A DNA stretch of 43,847 nucleotides from a virus. The stretch lies in the IMG/VR virus record IMGVR_UViG_3300030613_000005; one strand, given 5' to 3'. Within the stretch, counting starts at the first letter, position 1; the number at the start of each line of letters is the position of its first letter. Made by a program: the position numbers and the translations under genes. The notes beneath the pieces are model-generated. The model saw only the letters and a program-made list of their open reading frames with translations. It made no database searches and was not told the DNA's origin. This document shows, piece by piece, positions 14,285 through 31,361 of this stretch.

Positions 14285-14342
14285 TAGTATCTCTCCCGTT
14301 CTAGTAAGATGTTTCTACTAAGATACTAATTCTAATTACAAG

Positions 14343-14416
14343 TGGACTAACTGGGACTTGAACCCAGGACCGCCATCTTATAAGGATGGTGCTCTAACCT
14401 ACTGAGCTATTAGTCC
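14343..14416 (-). tRNA. tRNA-Ile (anticodon UAU)
   Basis: Hand-folded cloverleaf: GGACTAA / TA / GCTC-AGTAGGTTA-GAGC / A / CCATC-CTTATAA-GATGG / CGGTC / CTGGG-TTCAAGT-CCCAG / TTAGTCC / A. Confidence 0.8.
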
Positions 14417-14599: not shown

Positions 14600-14600
14600 G

Positions 14601-14673
14601 TGCCCTAGGTGGGACTCGAACCCACACTGTTCCGATTTTAAATCGGATTTCTCTGCCGTTGGAATACTAGGGC
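14601..14673 (-). tRNA. tRNA with anticodon UAA (Leu-decoding) but a class I short variable arm
   Basis: Hand-folded: GCCCTAG / TA / TTC-CAACGGCAGA-GAA / A / TCCGA-TTTAAAA-TCGGA / ACAGT / GTGGG-TTCGAGT-CCCAC / CTAGGGC / A. Confidence 0.7.
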
Positions 14674-20666: not shown

Positions 20667-20667
20667 G

Positions 20668-20740
20668 CTCCCCCACCTGGACTTGAACCAGGAACCAGCT
20701 GATTAACAGTCAGCTACTCTGCCAATTGAGTTATAGGGGA
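20668..20740 (-). tRNA. tRNA-Asn (anticodon GUU)
   Basis: Hand-folded: TCCCCTA / TA / ACTC-AATTGGCA-GAGT / A / GCTGA-CTGTTAA-TCAGC / TGGTT / CCTGG-TTCAAGT-CCAGG / TGGGGGA / G. Confidence 0.85.
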
Positions 20741-21811
20741 ATAACCCGCTACAGATGAAGTGGGAGGTTTTGTATAGTAGCTGCCTAATTAATCGAAAGG
20801 CATTATAGTCGCTATTAAAAGAAACAACGACACCCGGCTCACGTATCACGGGTACTATTTTTGTGAGCAGGTCTAACGGGCCACGTATTAGACCTGAACG
20901 TATACTTATTAGTATACTCTCCCTTATAAAGGGCCGATAGATGGGGGTAACGACCCTAATAATACTAATCAATAGGAACCAAACAATGGTGGTAGAAATG
21001 ATTTTGTACAGTGGTGGGATCTAATCCTCTTCAACCCGACTTAGCGCACGGGCACTGTTTTTGTCTGTATGATAAAGCTACAGGAGAACCTAGGTCACTA
21101 CTCCTTGTTCTCTCACTTCTGTATAAACTCCGATAGTCCTTAGTGTGAGGACACCGAAGAGCTAATTAGCGGTACTGCGCCCAGTTTTATACGACTACTG
21201 CGTCCAGTAGTTACGGGTTATTGGGCAACCCACACGCAAGGTGTTTACTTGTTGTCTTTAAGCTACTCAGCCCACGGTTTCGGCTACCCGAACGTTTATG
21301 TCGGACCCCACGGTTTCGCTGTAGCACCTTGCCGCACTGAGCTTAAGTAATCTCATCTGTCTCCCCTTCTATACACATTGTTGTGTGAAGCAGGAGGCAC
21401 ACGCTTTACAACAGATCCGCTCAGTCGGGATTACTTGAGAGCAGTTTTGTTCTCGAGGTTGGAAGCCTCGGGTCATACTCAGGACCCACACTCATTTCCG
21501 AATTGTCCGCACTCTCACAGTCCATCTGCGGCTATTTCCATCAGAGTTTCAGGGTTAGTGTGGAAACCCGCTTTGTTCATAGGGGAGTAGTAAGGACCCA
21601 CTATTCTCGCTATTCCCCTACTATTCTGCTATTTCCATCCGAAGCAACTCTTATTTTCCCTGAATTACTTCAATAGCAGAACGTAGGTAGCCAGGATTCG
21701 AACCTGGATCTCTCAGATTGTCCTCACACCATATCGGAGGTCTGAGTATTTTAACCAGCCTAGCAGGGTTAGATAGGCCTGTTAAACTACTACCCGCTGT
21801 GTGTACCTACC
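20741..21811 (-). ncRNA. Candidate large structured noncoding RNA (GOLLD/ROOL-like class or novel)
   Basis: 1071 bp with no credible ORF in an otherwise gene-dense genome. Many local helices, a 19-bp long-range pairing, a tRNA-like 5' element and an adjacent tRNA. The strand is inferred from flanking genes and the T-arm orientation. Confidence 0.5.
21683..21809 (-). ncRNA. tRNA-like element with a canonical T-arm and extended non-canonical arms
   Basis: On the minus strand, CCAGG-TTCGAAT-CCTGG (21691-21707). Acceptor-like pairing TAGGTAC/CTACCTA (21803-09 with 21684-90). Two long hairpins stand in place of the D and anticodon arms. Confidence 0.5.
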
Positions 21812-24873: not shown

Positions 24874-25199
24874 TAGATGACATCCCTCTTCCCACAAGTG
24901 TTACTTGCACATGGCTTACACATAGGCCAATCGTCGCCATCCTTATCTGTCCAGAGATTAGTAGTTTCTACGTTGCACTCACAAACACAAACACAGTCTT
25001 TTAGTTCATCAGACTGCTTAGGCCGATCAGTCTGTTCAGTCACGTCAAAGAAAACATATTGTTCCAGAGTGCCATCTTGCTTCATATCTTTCTTGATATT
25101 ATCGGCCGTATTAGGAAACACTACTGTGCTAGTCCACCACTTAGACTCTGCCCTGTCCGTCTTCTTAATATATATAACATAGTTCTTAGGCTCAGCCAT
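24873..25199 (-). CDS. Hypothetical Cys-rich protein (108 aa)
   Basis: ORF containing CVCVCEC and CKPCASNTC. Confidence 0.65.
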   Translation of the reverse strand: MAEPKNYVIYIKKTDRAESKWWTSTVVFPNTADNIKKDMKQDGTLEQYVFFDVTEQTDRPKQSDELKDCVCVCECNVETTNLWTDKDGDDWPMCKPCASNTCGKRDVI

Positions 25200-25200
25200 T

Positions 25201-25398
25201 TCACACCTTCCTAATCGTCATATTACAGCAAGCGAAATCATCATTCGGGATAGCATAGATAAGGTTAGTGTCAGCTGGAATATTGGCGTCTATCACATCT
25301 TTAGGGAACCACCCAATACTAACTAGTGCTGTACGGTAGACACAACCGTCTTTCCACTGCGTAATCTTACGCTGTTCCTTGTAAACCTCGTAGGCCAT
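25201..25398 (-). CDS. Hypothetical protein (65 aa)
   Basis: ORF packed at 1-nt spacing on both sides. Confidence 0.55.
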   Translation of the reverse strand: MAYEVYKEQRKITQWKDGCVYRTALVSIGWFPKDVIDANIPADTNLIYAIPNDDFACCNMTIRKV

Positions 25399-25399
25399 G

Positions 25400-25855
25400 T
25401 TATACCTTCCCTGTCACTATGTCTAGAAGGTCTGGGTCCTTACGCCTATCGTCTTCTGCTATACGCACTAGATAAGTGTACATAGCGTAAGTGACTAGTA
25501 TGTTCGCTCTCAGCTCTGTATCGGGCCAGTTACTATTTTCTATGCGCTCAAATAGCACATGTTCTGTCCCTCTAAGAGACAACACCATTTCGTATAGTTC
25601 TTTTTGTGTTGTGTCATCTATAAGTGTGTAGTCTACACCCAAGTTCTTAACATGTGAAGCACTTTTAAACGCTACAGGGCGGTCAAGTACCCACTTAGCA
25701 CCAATTAGGATTAGCCACTCTTCTAAGCTGTCTGTTACTACTCGGTACCTATTGTCCGGTCCCTTCATTAACCCTGGTGAGTTAAAGACTCTACTGAACT
25801 TATTCTTCGCTACACCAAAGAGCACCTCTAGTTCATTCTGCGTAAAGCCTCGCAT
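25400..25855 (-). CDS. Hypothetical protein, possible N-terminal HTH
   Basis: 151-aa ORF. The segment FTQNELEVLFGVAKNKFSRV resembles a helix-turn-helix. Confidence 0.6.
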   Translation of the reverse strand: MRGFTQNELEVLFGVAKNKFSRVFNSPGLMKGPDNRYRVVTDSLEEWLILIGAKWVLDRPVAFKSASHVKNLGVDYTLIDDTTQKELYEMVLSLRGTEHVLFERIENSNWPDTELRANILVTYAMYTYLVRIAEDDRRKDPDLLDIVTGKV

Positions 25856-26031
25856 ACCTTGCTTCGTAAAGGCCCGAAATATATCCTCCGGTCCTATAGC
25901 ACCTTTAATTTATGTCACCTCCTAATCTCAACGAAAGGTGTGTGCAGAGTTTTTACACACATAATAAACCAGAAGAGCCATGCCATGCACAATAGAATAT
26001 ACCCCACTAGATATAAACGTCCCTTCATTAT

Positions 26032-26388
26032 TCAGAACCTATGCTGAGCGCAGTACCACACATTTTCATGGAGAGTGTAACCTTCTTCCATTGGAAGAGA
26101 AGAATCTATTTCTTCGGAACTATCTTCCCATTGGTAAACTGTTACACAGCCTTGTGCATAGTACCCACACTCTATCTTATGCTTGAACATCGGAACCCTT
26201 TCCTTTTTCTGCTCAGGGAAGGTAGCTGTGACAAGTGGCTTTCCGTCCACAGTTACCTCGTAATAAGTAATCATCTCTGCACTAACAAGTGAATCCGCTG
26301 CATCGCTACAGAGCGTAAGTTGTTTCTGATTGTGTGCATAGAAGGTGATTTTTAAGTTATCCAACTCATAGAGCTTAATAGTCCACAT
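26032..26388 (-). CDS. Hypothetical protein (118 aa)
   Basis: Start set to ATG 26388, which is preceded by AAGGAAAGG. The track extension to 26523 runs through operator-like palindromes. Confidence 0.6.
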   Translation of the reverse strand: MWTIKLYELDNLKITFYAHNQKQLTLCSDAADSLVSAEMITYYEVTVDGKPLVTATFPEQKKERVPMFKHKIECGYYAQGCVTVYQWEDSSEEIDSSLPMEEGYTLHENVWYCAQHRF

Positions 26389-26490
26389 AATTAGTAAACC
26401 TTTCCTTGTCCGGAATGTGGGGCATGCGGCATAGGGGAAGTATAGGGGAGAATGTCCGAATTGGGTAGTCTGGGCTGTTATGTCGCACCG

Positions 26491-26589
26491 GTCTACGGTC
26501 TCCGTAGACGGTAGACCGAGCATATGGTTGAACGCTCACCGTCTACTAGGTCGGTAGACATGCAGGTCAGAGGGGGGTCGGCTGTCTAC
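26491..26589. promoter_or_regulatory. Operator-like array: six GTCTAC/GTAGAC half-sites including two GTCTAC-N7-GTAGAC palindromes
   Basis: GTCTAC at 26491, 26541 and 26584. GTAGAC at 26504, 26511 and 26554. The palindromes 26491-26509 and 26541-26559 are 50 bp apart. Confidence 0.6.
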
Positions 26590-26616
26590 AAGATCGTAAA
26601 ATAGTCCCCGGAATAT

Positions 26617-26657
26617 GGGAATAAAGGTAGGTCGCTTAGCGACCGTACTTTATTCCC
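26617..26657 (-). terminator. Strong composite hairpin, possible terminator of the promoter-A transcript
   Basis: GGGAATAAAG/CTTTATTCCC (10 bp) plus an inner GGTCGC/GCGACC (6 bp, loop TTA). The flanks are AT-rich but there is no clean U-run. Confidence 0.4.
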
Positions 26658-27014
26658 AATTATTCCACTAATTAATTATTTTTTCTTTCTTTAACTTCAT
26701 TCTAAACGAAAAAATAGGTTACGCTAGGTATTATATCCATATTCCCTAACGAAATAGTCGAGTTGTTTTTAAGAATATAAATGATACAAAATGGACTCGA
26801 CGAAGTTAAAAACCTATTTAAACTAGTAGAACTTAGTTAAAACTTGGTAAGGGCTCTAATAATGGAATACTAACACTCTCTCATTATCAGTATTATCTAG
26901 TGCTAGGCCCTTAACTAAAGTTATGGGGACTTTCCTCTATTTAATTCTCAATATACTAGCACTAATAAGAGTCATCAACTGTCTTATTGTGCTTGTGCTT
27001 TCCGAACTAGTGCA

Positions 27015-27043
27015 ACTCTACTCCCCTAGCACGAACCCGTCAA
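27015..27043 (-). promoter_or_regulatory. Promoter A: TTGACG-N17-TAGAGT
   Basis: Minus-strand -35 at 27038-43 and -10 at 27015-20. Shares GCTAG(G/A)GGAGTAG with promoter B. It fires into an ORF-free AT-rich region. Confidence 0.6.
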
Positions 27044-27127
27044 ATTTCCGGAGGTTCCCGGACAAAGCGGACATTTTGGTACACATGACGCATAACGCCG
27101 CATTGTTTCCATGCGGACTATAGTGGA

Positions 27128-27171
27128 AAGAATATAGCCCCAACTCCCTAAGGAATTGGGGCTATATTCTT
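27128..27171 (-). terminator. Terminator T1 downstream of CDS 27189..27926
   Basis: 16-bp stem AAGAATATAGCCCCAA/TTGGGGCTATATTCTT plus an inner TCC/GGA. T-rich 3' side on the minus strand. Confidence 0.8.
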
Positions 27172-27188
27172 GTGGAACTATTCAGTTC

Positions 27189-27926
27189 TTAGTTCTTGGG
27201 AGACACCCGAACTTCGTAGTTCTTCTCCCCTGCGGTGAAACCGAACTCGACGATGGTGGAAAGGTCCTGAGTTCCTGCGGTTTCATAGAGAGGACCCTGA
27301 AGATCCTTCGCTGAGACATTGACATCCTTACCAGCATCCTTGGAAATGAGCTGAGCGAGGACAGTCAGGTTGGTAACTCGCTTCTCCTCCGGCTTGCCCG
27401 CATCCTTGACAGTAAAGACATCAATCCAAGCTTCCGAACCGGCGACTCGGTATTCAATCTTGGCGAATCGCGGACGGGGAATACCAGCGGAAGATGCTCC
27501 ACCACGACCAGTACCAGGAGCAGCCTTGATTTCAGGAACATCTTCCAGAGCCTTCTCAACACCAGGGAAGCTCAGGAGAGTCTTACGCATATCCCGCGCC
27601 TGAGAGACAAGGTCCTTATACTGAGCTGTAATCTTTTCGACATCAATCGGCTCTTGAGAAACGAAGCCCTTCTCAATGATGTACTTCTCAACAGCAGCTT
27701 GATTCTTGAGAATTTCCTCGTTAACCGAGTTGTACCACTTACGGTACTTGAGAATGTTCGCGTCATCCGTTTCTGCCTCATCGCGGAACTGGTGAAGCAG
27801 AAGGTCCTTACTGCCCGCTGCCACAAGCTTATCTGCAAGAGAGTTGGCGTTGGTGATCAGATCACCCAGAACCTGCGTGCCAGCGGTGACGAAATTGTTG
27901 AGTGTGTCAGCGGACATGGTGTCCAC
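27189..27926 (-). CDS. Hypothetical protein (245 aa) in a GC-rich cassette
   Basis: ORF with its own promoter (B) and terminator (T1). RBS AAAGGGTGG. I recognised no motif. Confidence 0.8.
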   Translation of the reverse strand: MDTMSADTLNNFVTAGTQVLGDLITNANSLADKLVAAGSKDLLLHQFRDEAETDDANILKYRKWYNSVNEEILKNQAAVEKYIIEKGFVSQEPIDVEKITAQYKDLVSQARDMRKTLLSFPGVEKALEDVPEIKAAPGTGRGGASSAGIPRPRFAKIEYRVAGSEAWIDVFTVKDAGKPEEKRVTNLTVLAQLISKDAGKDVNVSAKDLQGPLYETAGTQDLSTIVEFGFTAGEKNYEVRVSPKN

Positions 27927-27966
27927 CCTTTCTAGGTGTTGTGGTCGGGGCCTGACTTCAAGTGCC

Positions 27967-27995
27967 AGACTACTCCTCTAGCGCCACTATGTCAA
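27967..27995 (-). promoter_or_regulatory. Promoter B: TTGACA-N17-TAGTCT
   Basis: Minus-strand -35 at 27990-95 and -10 at 27967-72, about 35 nt upstream of ATG 27926. Confidence 0.65.
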
Positions 27996-28067
27996 TTCAT
28001 CGGACGCGTGGAGCTCTGTAGCGGGAACAATTCGGGCAAGCCGCCGCATTTGTTTCCATGCAGCTTA

Positions 28068-28110
28068 AAGAAATTGGGCTAATCCCTTGAGGGACTAACC
28101 CAATTTCTTT
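28068..28110 (-). terminator. Terminator T2 downstream of the 28109..28692 two-gene unit
   Basis: 12-bp stem AAAGAAATTGGG/CCCAATTTCTTT with an inner TCCC/GGGA. Overlaps the stop at 28109-11. Confidence 0.75.
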
Positions 28111-28255
28111 ACTCGTTGGGGTATTGGTCGAGATAGACTTTGAGAAGGGCTATCAGCTCCTCCGGCTTACCTTCTGGGAGCTTTCCCTCCGGTGTCTCAT
28201 TGGCAACAAGCAACTTCATTATTGCCAGCATGAGTGGGTAACCCTCTGAGAGCAT
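28109..28255 (-). CDS. Small ORF (48 aa) translationally coupled to the upstream gene
   Basis: TGATG overlap at 28253-28257. Translation MLSEGYPLMLAIMKLLVANETPEGKLPEGKPEELIALLKVYLDQYPNE. Same high-GC codon style as its neighbours. Confidence 0.5.
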   Translation of the reverse strand: MLSEGYPLMLAIMKLLVANETPEGKLPEGKPEELIALLKVYLDQYPNE

Positions 28256-28692
28256 CAGGCCTTGTCCTCCATCAGTTTCTCAACAATCGACTTGGCTTCC
28301 AAGAGAGATAGTGCTGGGAAACTCTCTCGGAGCGTCTTGACTGCGAGGACCTTCTTGTCGTCACGGATAGCAGCGAAGGTGACAGGATACTCGCCGTAGT
28401 GGTTGTGCGAGTAGGTGAGCATTTCAGCAATCGCAGAGATAAGTGCAGTGTTCTCTCTCCTGTTGTTGTAAGTGCGAGCATCAGCGAGTTCTCTGTCCAG
28501 CTGCTCAATCGTTCTTCCGCGCTGTTCATCCTGAGAGCCCAGGCGGACGAAGTTCGCGTTCAGAGTATTGAGGGCAGACTGTGCGCTATCCAGAGCAGAA
28601 GTCGTGTTCTCCAAGGTATCCTGTAGATACCTCACATCCGCGACGAGTGACAGGAAATACCTCATCCGCTTGGCTGAGACCTTGAACTTCAT
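28255..28692 (-). CDS. Protein with a ribosomal bL12 (L7/L12) C-terminal-domain-like motif
   Basis: C-terminus KKVLAVKTLRESFPALSLLEAKSIVEKL compared with E. coli bL12 [26 protein letters not shown] (recalled from memory). N-terminal coiled coil. RBS GAGGAG. Has its own promoter C. Confidence 0.6.
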   Translation of the reverse strand: MKFKVSAKRMRYFLSLVADVRYLQDTLENTTSALDSAQSALNTLNANFVRLGSQDEQRGRTIEQLDRELADARTYNNRRENTALISAIAEMLTYSHNHYGEYPVTFAAIRDDKKVLAVKTLRESFPALSLLEAKSIVEKLMEDKA

Positions 28693-28728
28693 TGTGTCTC
28701 CTCTGCTCTGTTCCCTGCTGACATCTAA

Positions 28729-28757
28729 AGACTATCGCAGTTCGGCTAGTTAGTCAA
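28729..28757 (-). promoter_or_regulatory. Promoter C: TTGACT-N17-TAGTCT (leftward early promoter)
   Basis: Minus-strand -35 at 28752-57 and -10 at 28729-34, about 30 nt upstream of ATG 28692. Confidence 0.65.
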
Positions 28758-28808
28758 GAAACCATGTTGTACAGGTCGCCGCGCCGCCCTTTGTTTCCAT
28801 TATAGTAT

Positions 28809-28887
28809 CTAACTTCCACTTCACATTAATATTCAATGTGTACTAAGCTAACTTCCACCTAATATACTAATTTACTTGTGTACTAAG
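28809..28887. promoter_or_regulatory. Direct repeats in the divergent control region (candidate operators)
   Basis: CTAACTTCCAC at 28809 and 28848. GTGTACTAAG at 28838 and 28878. Each pair is 39-40 bp apart. Confidence 0.55.
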
Positions 28888-28902
28888 TAGTTACTTATCT
28901 AC

Positions 28903-28931
28903 TTGACATCTCGTATATGTTACCGTAGTAT
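28903..28931 (+). promoter_or_regulatory. Rightward promoter TTGACA-N17-TAGTAT driving a leaderless transcript
   Basis: -35 at 28903-08 and -10 at 28926-31. ATG 28938 lies 7 nt after the -10, with no room for an RBS. Confidence 0.65.
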
Positions 28932-28937
28932 TTAGAT

Positions 28938-29429
28938 ATGATTAATCCTTATAAAGCAGCTAGGGAGGATCTTGGTTTATCCCAAGCATCTGTAGCCGAG
29001 GCTTCTAATGTCTCTAGACATTATGTGCTTCGTGTAGAACAAGGTTTATTCCATGTCCCTAGTCCTCGCCTAAGCACAACTCTTAATATAAGTCATATGG
29101 AACTTACAGATACTTACCATGAATGGCAGCATATTACTCGTGCTTTAGCTGCCCCTTCTGTAGCGGAGGGCGTAGAAAAGTATTTTCAAAGTGTACTAGT
29201 TCCTCTACAGAATAAACATCCTCATATAAAGCTACGTCAGTGTATTACAGATTCACAAGTGGCTTTTTGCATCCTGCTTAAGATTCAGCCTTCTAGACTA
29301 AGTGCATATGAAAAATCTAAAGGCATTACATTACCACTATTTCTAAAGGAGGCTTACTTTGACTGCGGAGTCACCCCTGAACAGCTTAATAGAATCGAAT
29401 CCAGATTCCGAGGAGCTACTCTCAGATAA
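28938..29429 (+). CDS. Xre/Cro-type helix-turn-helix regulator
   Basis: The N-terminus DLGLSQASVAEASNVSRHYVLRVEQG is a classic HTH_3-like pattern. First gene of the rightward arm. Confidence 0.75.
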   Translation: MINPYKAAREDLGLSQASVAEASNVSRHYVLRVEQGLFHVPSPRLSTTLNISHMELTDTYHEWQHITRALAAPSVAEGVEKYFQSVLVPLQNKHPHIKLRQCITDSQVAFCILLKIQPSRLSAYEKSKGITLPLFLKEAYFDCGVTPEQLNRIESRFRGATLR

Positions 29430-30171
29430 AGTAAGACACCTTATACAGTGGGTTTACCTTTTCTATGTCAATAATAAACGTAAACCCAGACCCGATGAAA
29501 TTTGGTCTGCAAACAAAGAAATGTATAGTTCCCCTTTAGAAGTAGCTACTTTATTAGATACTAGAGGCTTTAAGCGGTGTATTAACTTACGTGGTGTTTA
29601 CTGGACAAATGATAAAAACTTAACGTCAGAACAAATGTACGCTATCTCTTTTATTACTGACCCCACACAAATTGGCACACTTAGGGCACGGTTAAGTAAG
29701 ATAGGCATTACGTACGCTAAGTGGAAAGGTTGGATGTCTAACGGTGTATTCCGTAACGCATTCAACACAGTAGCGTCACAGCTACTAGAAGATAACTTCC
29801 ACGAAGTAGATAGAGGACTACTTAAGAGTGCAAGTAATGGTGATGTTACAGCAATTAAATTTGCGTATGAGATTACTGGTCGCTACGATCCGGCGAAAAA
29901 GCAGGCGCTTGATGTGGCGTCGGTGTTAGCGCAAGTGGTAGAAATTATCTGCAAGCACGTTAAAGACCCGGCAGCATTACAAGCAATTGGCGGAGAACTG
30001 ACTATGTTAAGTGGTAGTCAGGGGATTAGAACAGACCTTGCAGCCCCCCGACCTGCGTATATAGCAATGGAGCCGGTTCGGGAGCCAACCCCTTGGACGG
30101 CCGAAAACGAGCCTTTTTACAAAATTACGCCCCTAGAAGGAGAAATTTTTAATGGGAACGCTGACAACTAA
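29359..30171 (+). CDS. terS: Terminase small subunit (probable)
   Basis: LTSEQMYAISFITDP...TYAKWKGWMSN (HTH-like) and SASNGDVTAIKFAYEITGRY resemble TerS families. TTG start overlaps the upstream gene by 71 nt. Lies upstream of terL. Confidence 0.55.
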   Translation: MTAESPLNSLIESNPDSEELLSDKVRHLIQWVYLFYVNNKRKPRPDEIWSANKEMYSSPLEVATLLDTRGFKRCINLRGVYWTNDKNLTSEQMYAISFITDPTQIGTLRARLSKIGITYAKWKGWMSNGVFRNAFNTVASQLLEDNFHEVDRGLLKSASNGDVTAIKFAYEITGRYDPAKKQALDVASVLAQVVEIICKHVKDPAALQAIGGELTMLSGSQGIRTDLAAPRPAYIAMEPVREPTPWTAENEPFYKITPLEGEIFNGNADN

Positions 30172-31094: not shown

Positions 31095-31361
31095 TTGATT
31101 ATGGAAATACGTAGCTTTGGTTGGGCTCTGGAGATGTTAGAAGAAGGGCATAGGGTTAGTCGTCGTAATTGGAATGGGCCTGGGCAGTATCTGGAACTTC
31201 AAGTTCCAGATGAGCATTCAAAAATGACGTTACCGTATATTTTTATTACTACTGTTCAGGGTGACAGGGTTCCTTGGTTAGCAAGCCAGACAGACATGCT
31301 GTCTAAGGACTGGGGCTGCGCGAAAACCTGTCAGTATGCAGCAACTCCGGTAGAGGGGTAA
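31095..31361 (+). CDS. DUF2829-like small protein (Tad2-class candidate)
   Basis: 88 aa. FGWALEMLEEGHRVSRRNWNG ... PWLASQTDMLSKDW follows the DUF2829 pattern (A..L..G..V.R..W ... W.P...D.L..DW) as I recall it. Confidence 0.6.
   Translation: MIMEIRSFGWALEMLEEGHRVSRRNWNGPGQYLELQVPDEHSKMTLPYIFITTVQGDRVPWLASQTDMLSKDWGCAKTCQYAATPVEG

What the first reader, a model, noticed from the sequence alone, without database searches (positions are those of the whole stretch)
26389..27188. 800-bp AT-rich noncoding region: promoter-to-hairpin unit of ~400 nt (ncRNA or transcription-activated origin)
Promoter A (TTGACG-N17-TAGAGT, 27015-43, minus strand) fires into sequence whose longest minus-strand ORFs are 4-12 codons. 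About 395 nt downstream lies the strong hairpin at 26617-57, followed by the operator array.

The interval folds into long AT-rich hairpins. Examples are AGCACAATAAGA / TCTTATT-a-GTGCT near 26955-26995 and TAAGGGC ... GCCCTTA near 26850-26912. It also contains a very AT-rich tract (26658-26720).

One curiosity is that the minus strand reads AGAGGAAAGTCCCC (26938-26925). This includes the 11-mer GAGGAAAGUCC that I recall as the universally conserved RNase P RNA CR-I. AGTCCCC is complementary to GGGGACT at 26609-26603, just past the hairpin. I see no other RNase P conserved regions.

Alternative reading: a promoter followed by an AT-rich region and iterons is the classical layout of a transcription-activated phage replication origin.
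Basis: partly seen in the sequence, partly recalled or inferred. Interest (0 to 1): 0.6.

Follow-up and report, generated by a model that had tools for sequence, protein, structure and literature searches.

The report
Phage genome end behind boxA leader
This gene-free stretch of an actinobacterial phage is most likely not an RNA gene: it looks like an early promoter carrying the host's ribosomal-RNA read-through signal (boxA), followed by the palindrome where the packaged chromosome ends.

Summary
A discrete ornate 400-nt RNA is weakly supported. The fold signal (z -6.6) comes mostly from the terminal palindrome; the middle alone scores z -1.7 and is 108-537 nt long in relatives.

The phage is Jasmine-like. 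In Jasmine, Adat and Casserole the equivalent gap holds the left end of the direct terminal repeat, 3 nt past the triloop of an equivalent palindrome. Their right ends match a motif at window 28800. Predicted repeat: about 26642-28800 (virion DNA about 45.9 kb); not checked with reads.

Behind promoter A lie a conserved hairpin and a degenerate copy of the actinobacterial rRNA-leader boxA. A genome scan put 57 of 71 informative hits just upstream of 16S. The element is at this position in 11 related phages. This suggests Nus-type antitermination across the 620-nt untranslated leader, as known for T7. An origin is not excluded. The scan reached similar readings before on other genomes (Jasmine-type ends; boxA leaders in phiEco32-like phages).

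The parts
27189..27917 (-). Upstream early gene (242 aa). N-terminal half is homologous to Jasmine gp1/gp58, the 'Lsr2-like' gene inside the terminal repeat. It serves as the synteny anchor.
   Evidence: hhalign E 5.5e-6 to Jasmine gp58, E 3.6e-13 to a DS1 gene; 133 related clusters; no Pfam or PDB fold match
27128..27171 (-). Intrinsic terminator of the upstream gene
   Evidence: 20-bp arms, 95% complementary; an equivalent hairpin follows the stop in nearly all relatives
27096..27112 (-). ATGGAAAC box: a copy of the genome right-end sequence placed in front of each early promoter (also at 28059 and 28800)
   Evidence: the Jasmine, Adat and Shocker records end exactly at this motif
27069..27085 (-). 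Second conserved upstream DNA box (TGTACCAAA-ATGTCC type), protein partner unknown
   Evidence: near-invariant in window, L004, L008, L009, L017, L020, L151
27015..27043 (-). Promoter A (host sigma-A type); predicted start about 27008
   Evidence: 71% identical to promoter B; TTGAC-17/18-TAGA(G/T)T also in L009, L017, L020
26957..26995 (-). Conserved leader hairpin in the boxB position: phage-specific loop CAGTTGATGAC on a covarying stem
   Evidence: one copy in each of 6 phages, 19-21 nt before boxA in 5 of them; 4 of 8 pairs show compensatory change; absent from bacterial rrn leaders
26935..26957 (-). Degenerate actinobacterial rRNA-leader boxA/CL2 element (core 26951-26937)
   Evidence: best match in the whole window, 13/15; pattern scan: 57 of 71 informative hits lie upstream of 16S; same position in 11 phages
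26927..26937 (-). The 'RNase P CR-I' 11-mer: coincidental, not conserved
   Evidence: differs in all homologs; no Rfam hit
26659..26934 (-). AT-rich untranslated spacer of variable length with a few lineage-specific hairpins (26801-26757 shared with L004 and L008; 26749-26724 similar by eye)
26610..26666 (.). Terminal palindrome, apex a C-G-closed 3-nt loop at 26636-26638; predicted left boundary of the direct terminal repeat near 26642 (+/-5)
   Evidence: DNA fold z -7.6/-6.7; inferred from the Jasmine, Adat and Casserole ends in the equivalent palindrome
26561..26572 (.). CTGACC(T/C) motif, conserved next to or inside the palindrome, in either orientation
   Evidence: found in 10 of the 14 segments examined
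26491..26589 (.). GTCTAC/GTAGAC repeat array just outside the predicted repeat boundary; position equivalent to the GGATAG array of Jasmine and Adat. Could be packaging-protein sites or operators.
   Evidence: 6 copies in 120 bp, 0.1 expected
26032..26388 (-). First gene of the leftward early/replication arm; no consensus promoter between it and the palindrome
28765..28800 (-). Predicted right end of the chromosome (28800): terminal ATGGAAAC copy followed by the ACAACATG motif found only in the terminal copy
   Evidence: matches the last bases of Jasmine, Adat and Shocker

Best explanation
The gap is the inner boundary of the phage's direct terminal repeat (DTR) together with the leader of its main early transcript. 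(1) Inferred: the chromosome is linear with a DTR of about 2.16 kb (26642-28800) holding three stacked host promoters. Its left end is made in the palindrome at 26610-26666, just past the triloop. The GTCTAC array and CTGACC motif are probably protein sites for this processing. (2) Inferred: host RNA polymerase starting at promoter A first transcribes a conserved hairpin and an rRNA-type boxA, which load NusB/S10 and partners. The polymerase then resists termination across 620 untranslated, hairpin-containing bases and reaches the leftward early/replication genes. The same promoter in the left DTR copy would give a run-off RNA of about 365 nt. Shown here: the sequence features, their conservation, the identity of the element with the rrn leader motif, and the end positions in relatives. 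Not shown: this phage's own ends, transcription, or Nus binding.
For: Helicase and capsid relatives are Jasmine-group phages, Shocker and DS1. Jasmine is a podovirus with a 1,330-bp DTR holding the Lsr2-like gene (PMC5513430), and the window's upstream gene is its homolog. Jasmine, Adat and Casserole left ends lie 372, 376 and 374 nt past that gene's stop, inside the palindrome, 3 nt 3' of the triloop. The order terminator - box - promoter - boxA - AT-rich - palindrome - short repeats - gene is the same in Jasmine and the window. The right-end motif matches at 28800. The predicted virion DNA of 45,879 bp is in the 45.4-46.7 kb range of the isolates. Genes inside the predicted DTR have GC3 0.56-0.64 against 0.26-0.47 outside. 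boxA: 57 of 71 informative genome hits have 16S starting 43-372 nt downstream. This leader motif is described as the putative mycobacterial boxA (PMC10218544). It is the best match in 10 of 11 phages with at most 3 of 200 shuffles as good. It is kept without the partner strand it has in rrn operons, which fits a single-stranded protein site. Promoters B and C, which have short coding leaders, lack it. T7 has a functional boxA behind its early promoters (PMC3709561).
Against: The window's palindrome is not alignable with Jasmine's, lies about 545 nt from the stop rather than 372, and has a TTA/TAA apex rather than GAA/GGA. The three anchoring isolates are close kin of each other. Shocker's left end is different: 484-bp DTR, no such gene, no boxA match. 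In DS1 the boxA leader and the palindrome lie on opposite sides of the gene. Casserole's deposited right end is 8 nt off Adat's. The window's boxA is degenerate in its 5' half (16/23). I found no direct demonstration of Nus antitermination in Actinobacteria in the papers read.
Confidence: 0.6

Rival explanations
1. Promoter A makes a discrete structured non-coding RNA of 365-410 nt with its own function (decoy or scaffold), and boxA helps to make and fold it.
For: Whole-region z -6.6 and a well-defined long-range helix in the window. Middle segments of L004, L008, L017 and Adat are structured (z -3.1 to -6.8). One internal hairpin is shared by the three closest phages. DS1 keeps a long boxA leader apart from the palindrome. 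A run-off from the left DTR copy would be discrete by geometry.
Against: In the window the middle is at background (z -1.7) and both strands score alike. Length is 108-537 nt, GC 22-55%, and the middle is largely unalignable. The closing helix is not conserved. No Rfam match in the window or in 9 related loci.
Confidence: 0.15
2. Transcription-activated replication origin of the T7 type: promoter A opens the AT-rich tract and primes the phage PolA/primase-helicase; the GTCTAC repeats are iterons. This can coexist with the best explanation.
For: The phage encodes a family A polymerase and a primase-helicase. This is the most AT-rich 300 nt of the genome. C-G-closed GAA/GGA triloops of the relatives are the extra-stable DNA mini-hairpin type seen at phage priming sites (PMC13037366).
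Against: No iteron-binding initiator was recognised among the genes scanned. GC skew follows gene direction, with its minimum near 29000-30000. The AT-rich character is lost in some relatives (55% GC in L153). The palindrome position is already explained by the mapped ends.
Confidence: 0.15
3. Purely regulatory: the palindrome is a bidirectional terminator or attenuator, and GTCTAC are operators for a phage regulator of the downstream arm. The genome end lies elsewhere.
For: The hairpin scores as terminator-like on both strands. The first downstream gene in L004 has a weak HTH hit. Repeat sequences differ between phages, as operators would.
Against: The T tails are poor. Arms of 20-30 bp with a conserved triloop exceed what a terminator needs. 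In three isolates the end is inside this element.
Confidence: 0.1
4. A phage-borne RNase P RNA or a fragment of one.
For: An exact 11-mer resembling CR-I (about 0.017 expected per genome, chosen after the fact).
Against: No Rfam RNase P match at E up to 5. The 11-mer is not conserved in any homolog. It overlaps the 3' end of the boxA element.
Confidence: 0.01

Closest known systems
Direct-terminal-repeat boundary of Arthrobacter podoviruses Jasmine, Adat, Casserole (Jasminevirus, cluster AV; PMC5513430)
   Same: Homologous gene upstream, same order of elements, same right-end motif, palindrome with a C-G-closed triloop followed by short repeats, similar genome size.
   Different: Longer spacer (291 against about 110 nt), unrelated palindrome and repeat sequences, TTA/TAA apex instead of GAA/GGA, no consensus promoter before the next gene, C-terminal domain of the upstream protein is not Lsr2. 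This phage's end is predicted, not mapped.
Actinobacterial rrn leader (hairpin then boxA/CL2) and the rRNA antitermination complex NusA/B/E/G, SuhB, S4
   Same: Strong host promoter, 5' hairpin, then the same 15-17-nt element, ahead of a long untranslated RNA.
   Different: Degenerate 5' half in the window; no 30-bp leader-spacer processing stalk; no rRNA follows; the hairpin loop is phage-specific.
Phage T7 early region and concatemer junction (A1-A3 promoters, boxA; PMC3709561; DNA hairpin linked to repeat duplication, PMC4281155)
   Same: Stacked host promoters at the first-transcribed end, boxA behind them, PolA plus primase-helicase, DTR with adjacent short repeats and a palindrome.
   Different: No phage RNA polymerase seen among the genes scanned. 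DTR about 2 kb with genes. The end falls at the palindrome apex; from my own knowledge the T7 M palindrome lies about 190 bp outside the repeat.
Large ornate phage RNAs (ROOL, GOLLD; PMC12286853)
   Same: Long untranslated phage RNA with hairpins.
   Different: No conserved length, sequence or covarying multi-domain core; no Rfam match.

Membership tests
RNase P RNA | Match to Rfam RNase P covariance models | tested here: not met
RNase P RNA | Conserved regions CR-I to CR-V kept across homologs | tested here: not met
   the 11-mer differs in every homolog
rrn-type boxA antitermination leader | Sequence match to the host-lineage rrn leader boxA | tested here: met
   13/15 core, best in the genome; pattern maps upstream of 16S in 57 of 71 informative hits; the 5' half is degenerate
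rrn-type boxA antitermination leader | Located shortly after a strong promoter, sense strand, behind a hairpin, ahead of untranslated RNA | tested here: met
rrn-type boxA antitermination leader | NusB/S10 binding and boxA-dependent read-through | not testable with these tools
   needs a binding or reporter assay
pre-16S processing stalk mimic | Leader element pairs over about 30 bp with a downstream partner | tested here: not met
   mostly -34 to -42 kcal/mol in 29 bacterial leaders; irregular -9 to -25 at variable places in phages
Jasminevirus-type DTR boundary | Synteny with the DTR gene and same order of elements | tested here: met
Jasminevirus-type DTR boundary | Right-end motif present between early and late promoters | tested here: met
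   28800
Jasminevirus-type DTR boundary | Palindrome with a C-G-closed GNA triloop at the left end | tested here: inconclusive
   triloop and C-G closure present, but the loop is TTA/TAA and the arms are unrelated in sequence
Jasminevirus-type DTR boundary | Doubled read depth and fixed read starts at both boundaries | not testable with these tools
Large ornate ncRNA (ROOL/GOLLD-like) | Conserved length and covarying multi-domain fold across homologs | tested here: not met
T7-type transcription-activated origin | Promoter followed by an AT-rich tract in a phage with PolA and primase-helicase | tested here: met
T7-type transcription-activated origin | Replication initiates here | not testable with these tools
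   needs initiation mapping or a plasmid assay

The most novel reading that the evidence does not exclude
These actinobacterial podoviruses duplicate their terminal repeat by fold-back priming from a triloop DNA hairpin lying exactly at the left end. The step is coupled to a host-polymerase transcript made processive by an rRNA-type boxA plus a phage-specific RNA hairpin. That hairpin would be the binding site of an unidentified phage antitermination protein (a nut-like system in Actinobacteria).
Probability: 0.2. Interest if true: 0.65.

Novelty: new variant of a known kind. Interest (0 to 1): 0.4.

Why it matters
It removes a false ncRNA/RNase P lead and gives an exact, testable prediction of both chromosome ends for an uncultured phage. 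It extends phage use of the rRNA boxA signal, known from T7, to podoviruses of Actinobacteria, where I found no direct test of Nus antitermination. Cultured Jasmine and Adat carry a near-perfect copy, so the test is easy. The end falling 3 nt from a DNA mini-hairpin apex in three isolates offers a handle on how long terminal repeats are duplicated in phages that rely on host RNA polymerase.

Tried and rejected
Rfam at E up to 5 on the window and E up to 1 on 9 related loci: only chance hits. blastn of 25000-29500 against GenBank phages: nothing. Pattern and protein scans of IMG/VR: no true relatives; L001-L003 matched only 22 residues and were not used. Contig ends of related assemblies fall near the repeated promoter boxes or at arbitrary places, not at the predicted termini. 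The idea that the RNA mimics a pre-16S processing stalk was tested and rejected. G-U versus A-C asymmetry between strands was too weak and confounded by composition. MAFFT could not align the middle region. A fold of the upstream protein (pLDDT 89) found no PDB match. PMC2941873 could not be read, and the primary T7 M-hairpin papers are not in the library.

Full report
Context. The window is a complete circular assembly of a phage (127-nt end overlap, unit 43,720 bp) with PolA, primase-helicase, terminase, P22-like portal and SU10-like capsid genes. Its helicase and capsid are 36-41% identical to those of Arthrobacter phages Jasmine, Adat and Casserole, Microbacterium phage Shocker and Cellulosimicrobium phage DS1. 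Jasmine is a podovirus with a 1,330-bp direct terminal repeat that contains an Lsr2-like gene (PMC5513430).

Observation. The region holds the lowest-GC 300 nt of the genome and no minus-strand ORF above 13 codons in 26600-27010. The 411-nt fold has z -6.6, but equally on both strands. The signal sits in the palindromes: the segment between boxA and the terminal palindrome has z -1.7, and 150-nt windows across the middle lie in the genome background. Rfam finds nothing.

Relatives. The upstream 242-aa gene has 133 related clusters. Its loci gave homologous regions L004, L008, L009, L017, L020, L151, L152 and L153. Profile comparison tied the gene to Jasmine gp58 (E 5.5e-6) and to a DS1 gene (E 3.6e-13). 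The common order after the stop is: terminator, ATGGAAAC box, a second box, promoter, hairpin, a 15-17-nt conserved element, a variable spacer, a long palindrome, short repeats, next gene. L152 and L153 lack some parts, and DS1 rearranges them. The RNase P-like 11-mer is not among the conserved parts.

The conserved element is the rRNA-leader boxA. A pattern built from the window, L009 and Jasmine, with one position widened to admit the rrn form I recalled, was scanned over 185,579 genomes. The hits were overwhelmingly Actinobacteria. Of 122 matches, 57 had the 16S start 43-372 nt downstream, 51 ran off the held sequence, and 14 were unrelated; 105 were one exact rrn sequence. The window's own exact 17-mer occurred only twice, so the window carries a variant rather than a copy. 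The motif is described as the putative boxA of mycobacterial rrn leaders (PMC10218544), and boxA loads NusB:S10 (PMC13753749). In the phages it is the best match in each region, reached by at most 3 of 200 shuffles in 10 of 11 cases; Jasmine and Adat match at 20 of 23 positions, the window at 16. In bacteria it also forms a 30-bp stalk with the 16S-23S spacer; the phages have no such partner, so it is kept as sequence. A hairpin with a conserved loop and covarying stem precedes it by about 20 nt in five phages and by 52 nt in a sixth; this loop is not found upstream of bacterial boxA. Promoters B and C lack boxA, and no consensus promoter lies between the palindrome and gene 26388. Inference: promoter A drives the leftward arm through 620 untranslated bases under Nus-type antitermination. 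T7 is a precedent (PMC3709561).

The palindrome is where relatives end. The terminal repeats of Jasmine, Adat and Casserole (1,330, 1,551 and 1,558 bp) begin 372-376 nt past the gene's stop, inside the palindrome. The apex is a 3-nt loop closed by C-G: GAA in Jasmine, GGA in Adat, Casserole, L008 and L151, TTA/TAA in the window, L004, L020 and DS1. The ends fall 3 nt 3' of the loop on the plus strand, which places the window's end near 26642. GAA and GGA triloops of this kind are unusually stable in DNA and weaker in RNA (PMC13037366), which favours a DNA-level role. The right ends of Jasmine, Adat and Shocker coincide with the ATGGAA-type box followed by ACAACATG; the window has exactly this at 28800. 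The predicted repeat is 2,159 bp and the virion DNA 45,879 bp, within the range of the isolates; its genes have a distinctly higher GC3. Exact repeats are duplicated during packaging (PMC5000459), and a DNA hairpin is implicated in T7 (PMC4281155). Fold-back priming at this palindrome is compatible with the geometry but is my inference only.

Limits. The three anchoring isolates are close kin. The window's palindrome shares position and shape with theirs, not sequence. Shocker ends differently on the left. DS1 separates leader and palindrome. No reads could be examined.

Rivals. A discrete RNA stays possible (0.15): some relatives have well-folded spacers, one hairpin is shared by the three closest phages, and the left repeat copy would give a run-off of about 365 nt (z -2.2). 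Its length and sequence are not conserved. A T7-type origin (0.15) fits the layout and is not exclusive, but nothing tested supports it specifically. A purely regulatory reading gets 0.1 and RNase P 0.01.

Prior notes. I reached the terminal-repeat and boxA readings. Later look-ups showed that the scan had proposed Jasmine-type ends for other actinophage windows and boxA leaders for phiEco32-like phages, and they pointed me to the T7 paper. These notes are not independent evidence.

Verdict. A real, conserved element; a new variant of known kinds (terminal-repeat junction plus boxA-protected early leader). Interest 0.4.

Noticed in passing
window 27112, 28059, 28800 (minus strand): Each early promoter cassette starts with a copy of the chromosome's right-end sequence. 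This suggests the terminal repeat grew by duplicating its end-plus-promoter unit, or that one protein reads both the end and the promoters.
   Followed up: partly
window 27189-27917: A family of 133 clusters with no Pfam or PDB match. The N-terminal helical half is shared with Jasmine's Lsr2-like protein, but the C-terminal beta/alpha domain is different; probably a modular early DNA-binding protein.
   Followed up: partly
   Followed up: no
L017:7130-7150 and L151:2400-2412: The CTGACC motif is inverted relative to the window, and L153 has its GAA triloop on the opposite strand; the palindrome region seems to flip between lineages.
   Followed up: no
L023:8440-8860 (phage DS1): A cultured phage with promoter, hairpin, boxA and a 290-nt multi-hairpin leader placed in front of the homologous gene, apart from the palindrome; a ready test case for the leader alone.
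   Followed up: partly
window 28255-28692: Early protein with a weak C-terminal match to ribosomal protein L7/L12 (Pfam E 0.014, below cut-off).
   Followed up: partly
window 14342-14416, 14600-14673, 20667-20740: Three tRNA genes: anticodon TAT (Ile), TAA (Leu) and GTT (Asn).
   Followed up: no
window 21601-21750: The strongest folding signal among the background windows (z -6.8), inside the separately reported structured RNA beside tRNA-Asn; it has no boxA match and no similarity to this region.
   Followed up: partly
window 31095-31361; L020:693-926: Small anti-defence-like genes near the terminase: Tad2-like in this phage and L004, Acb2/Tad1-like in L020 (precomputed Pfam hits).
   Followed up: no
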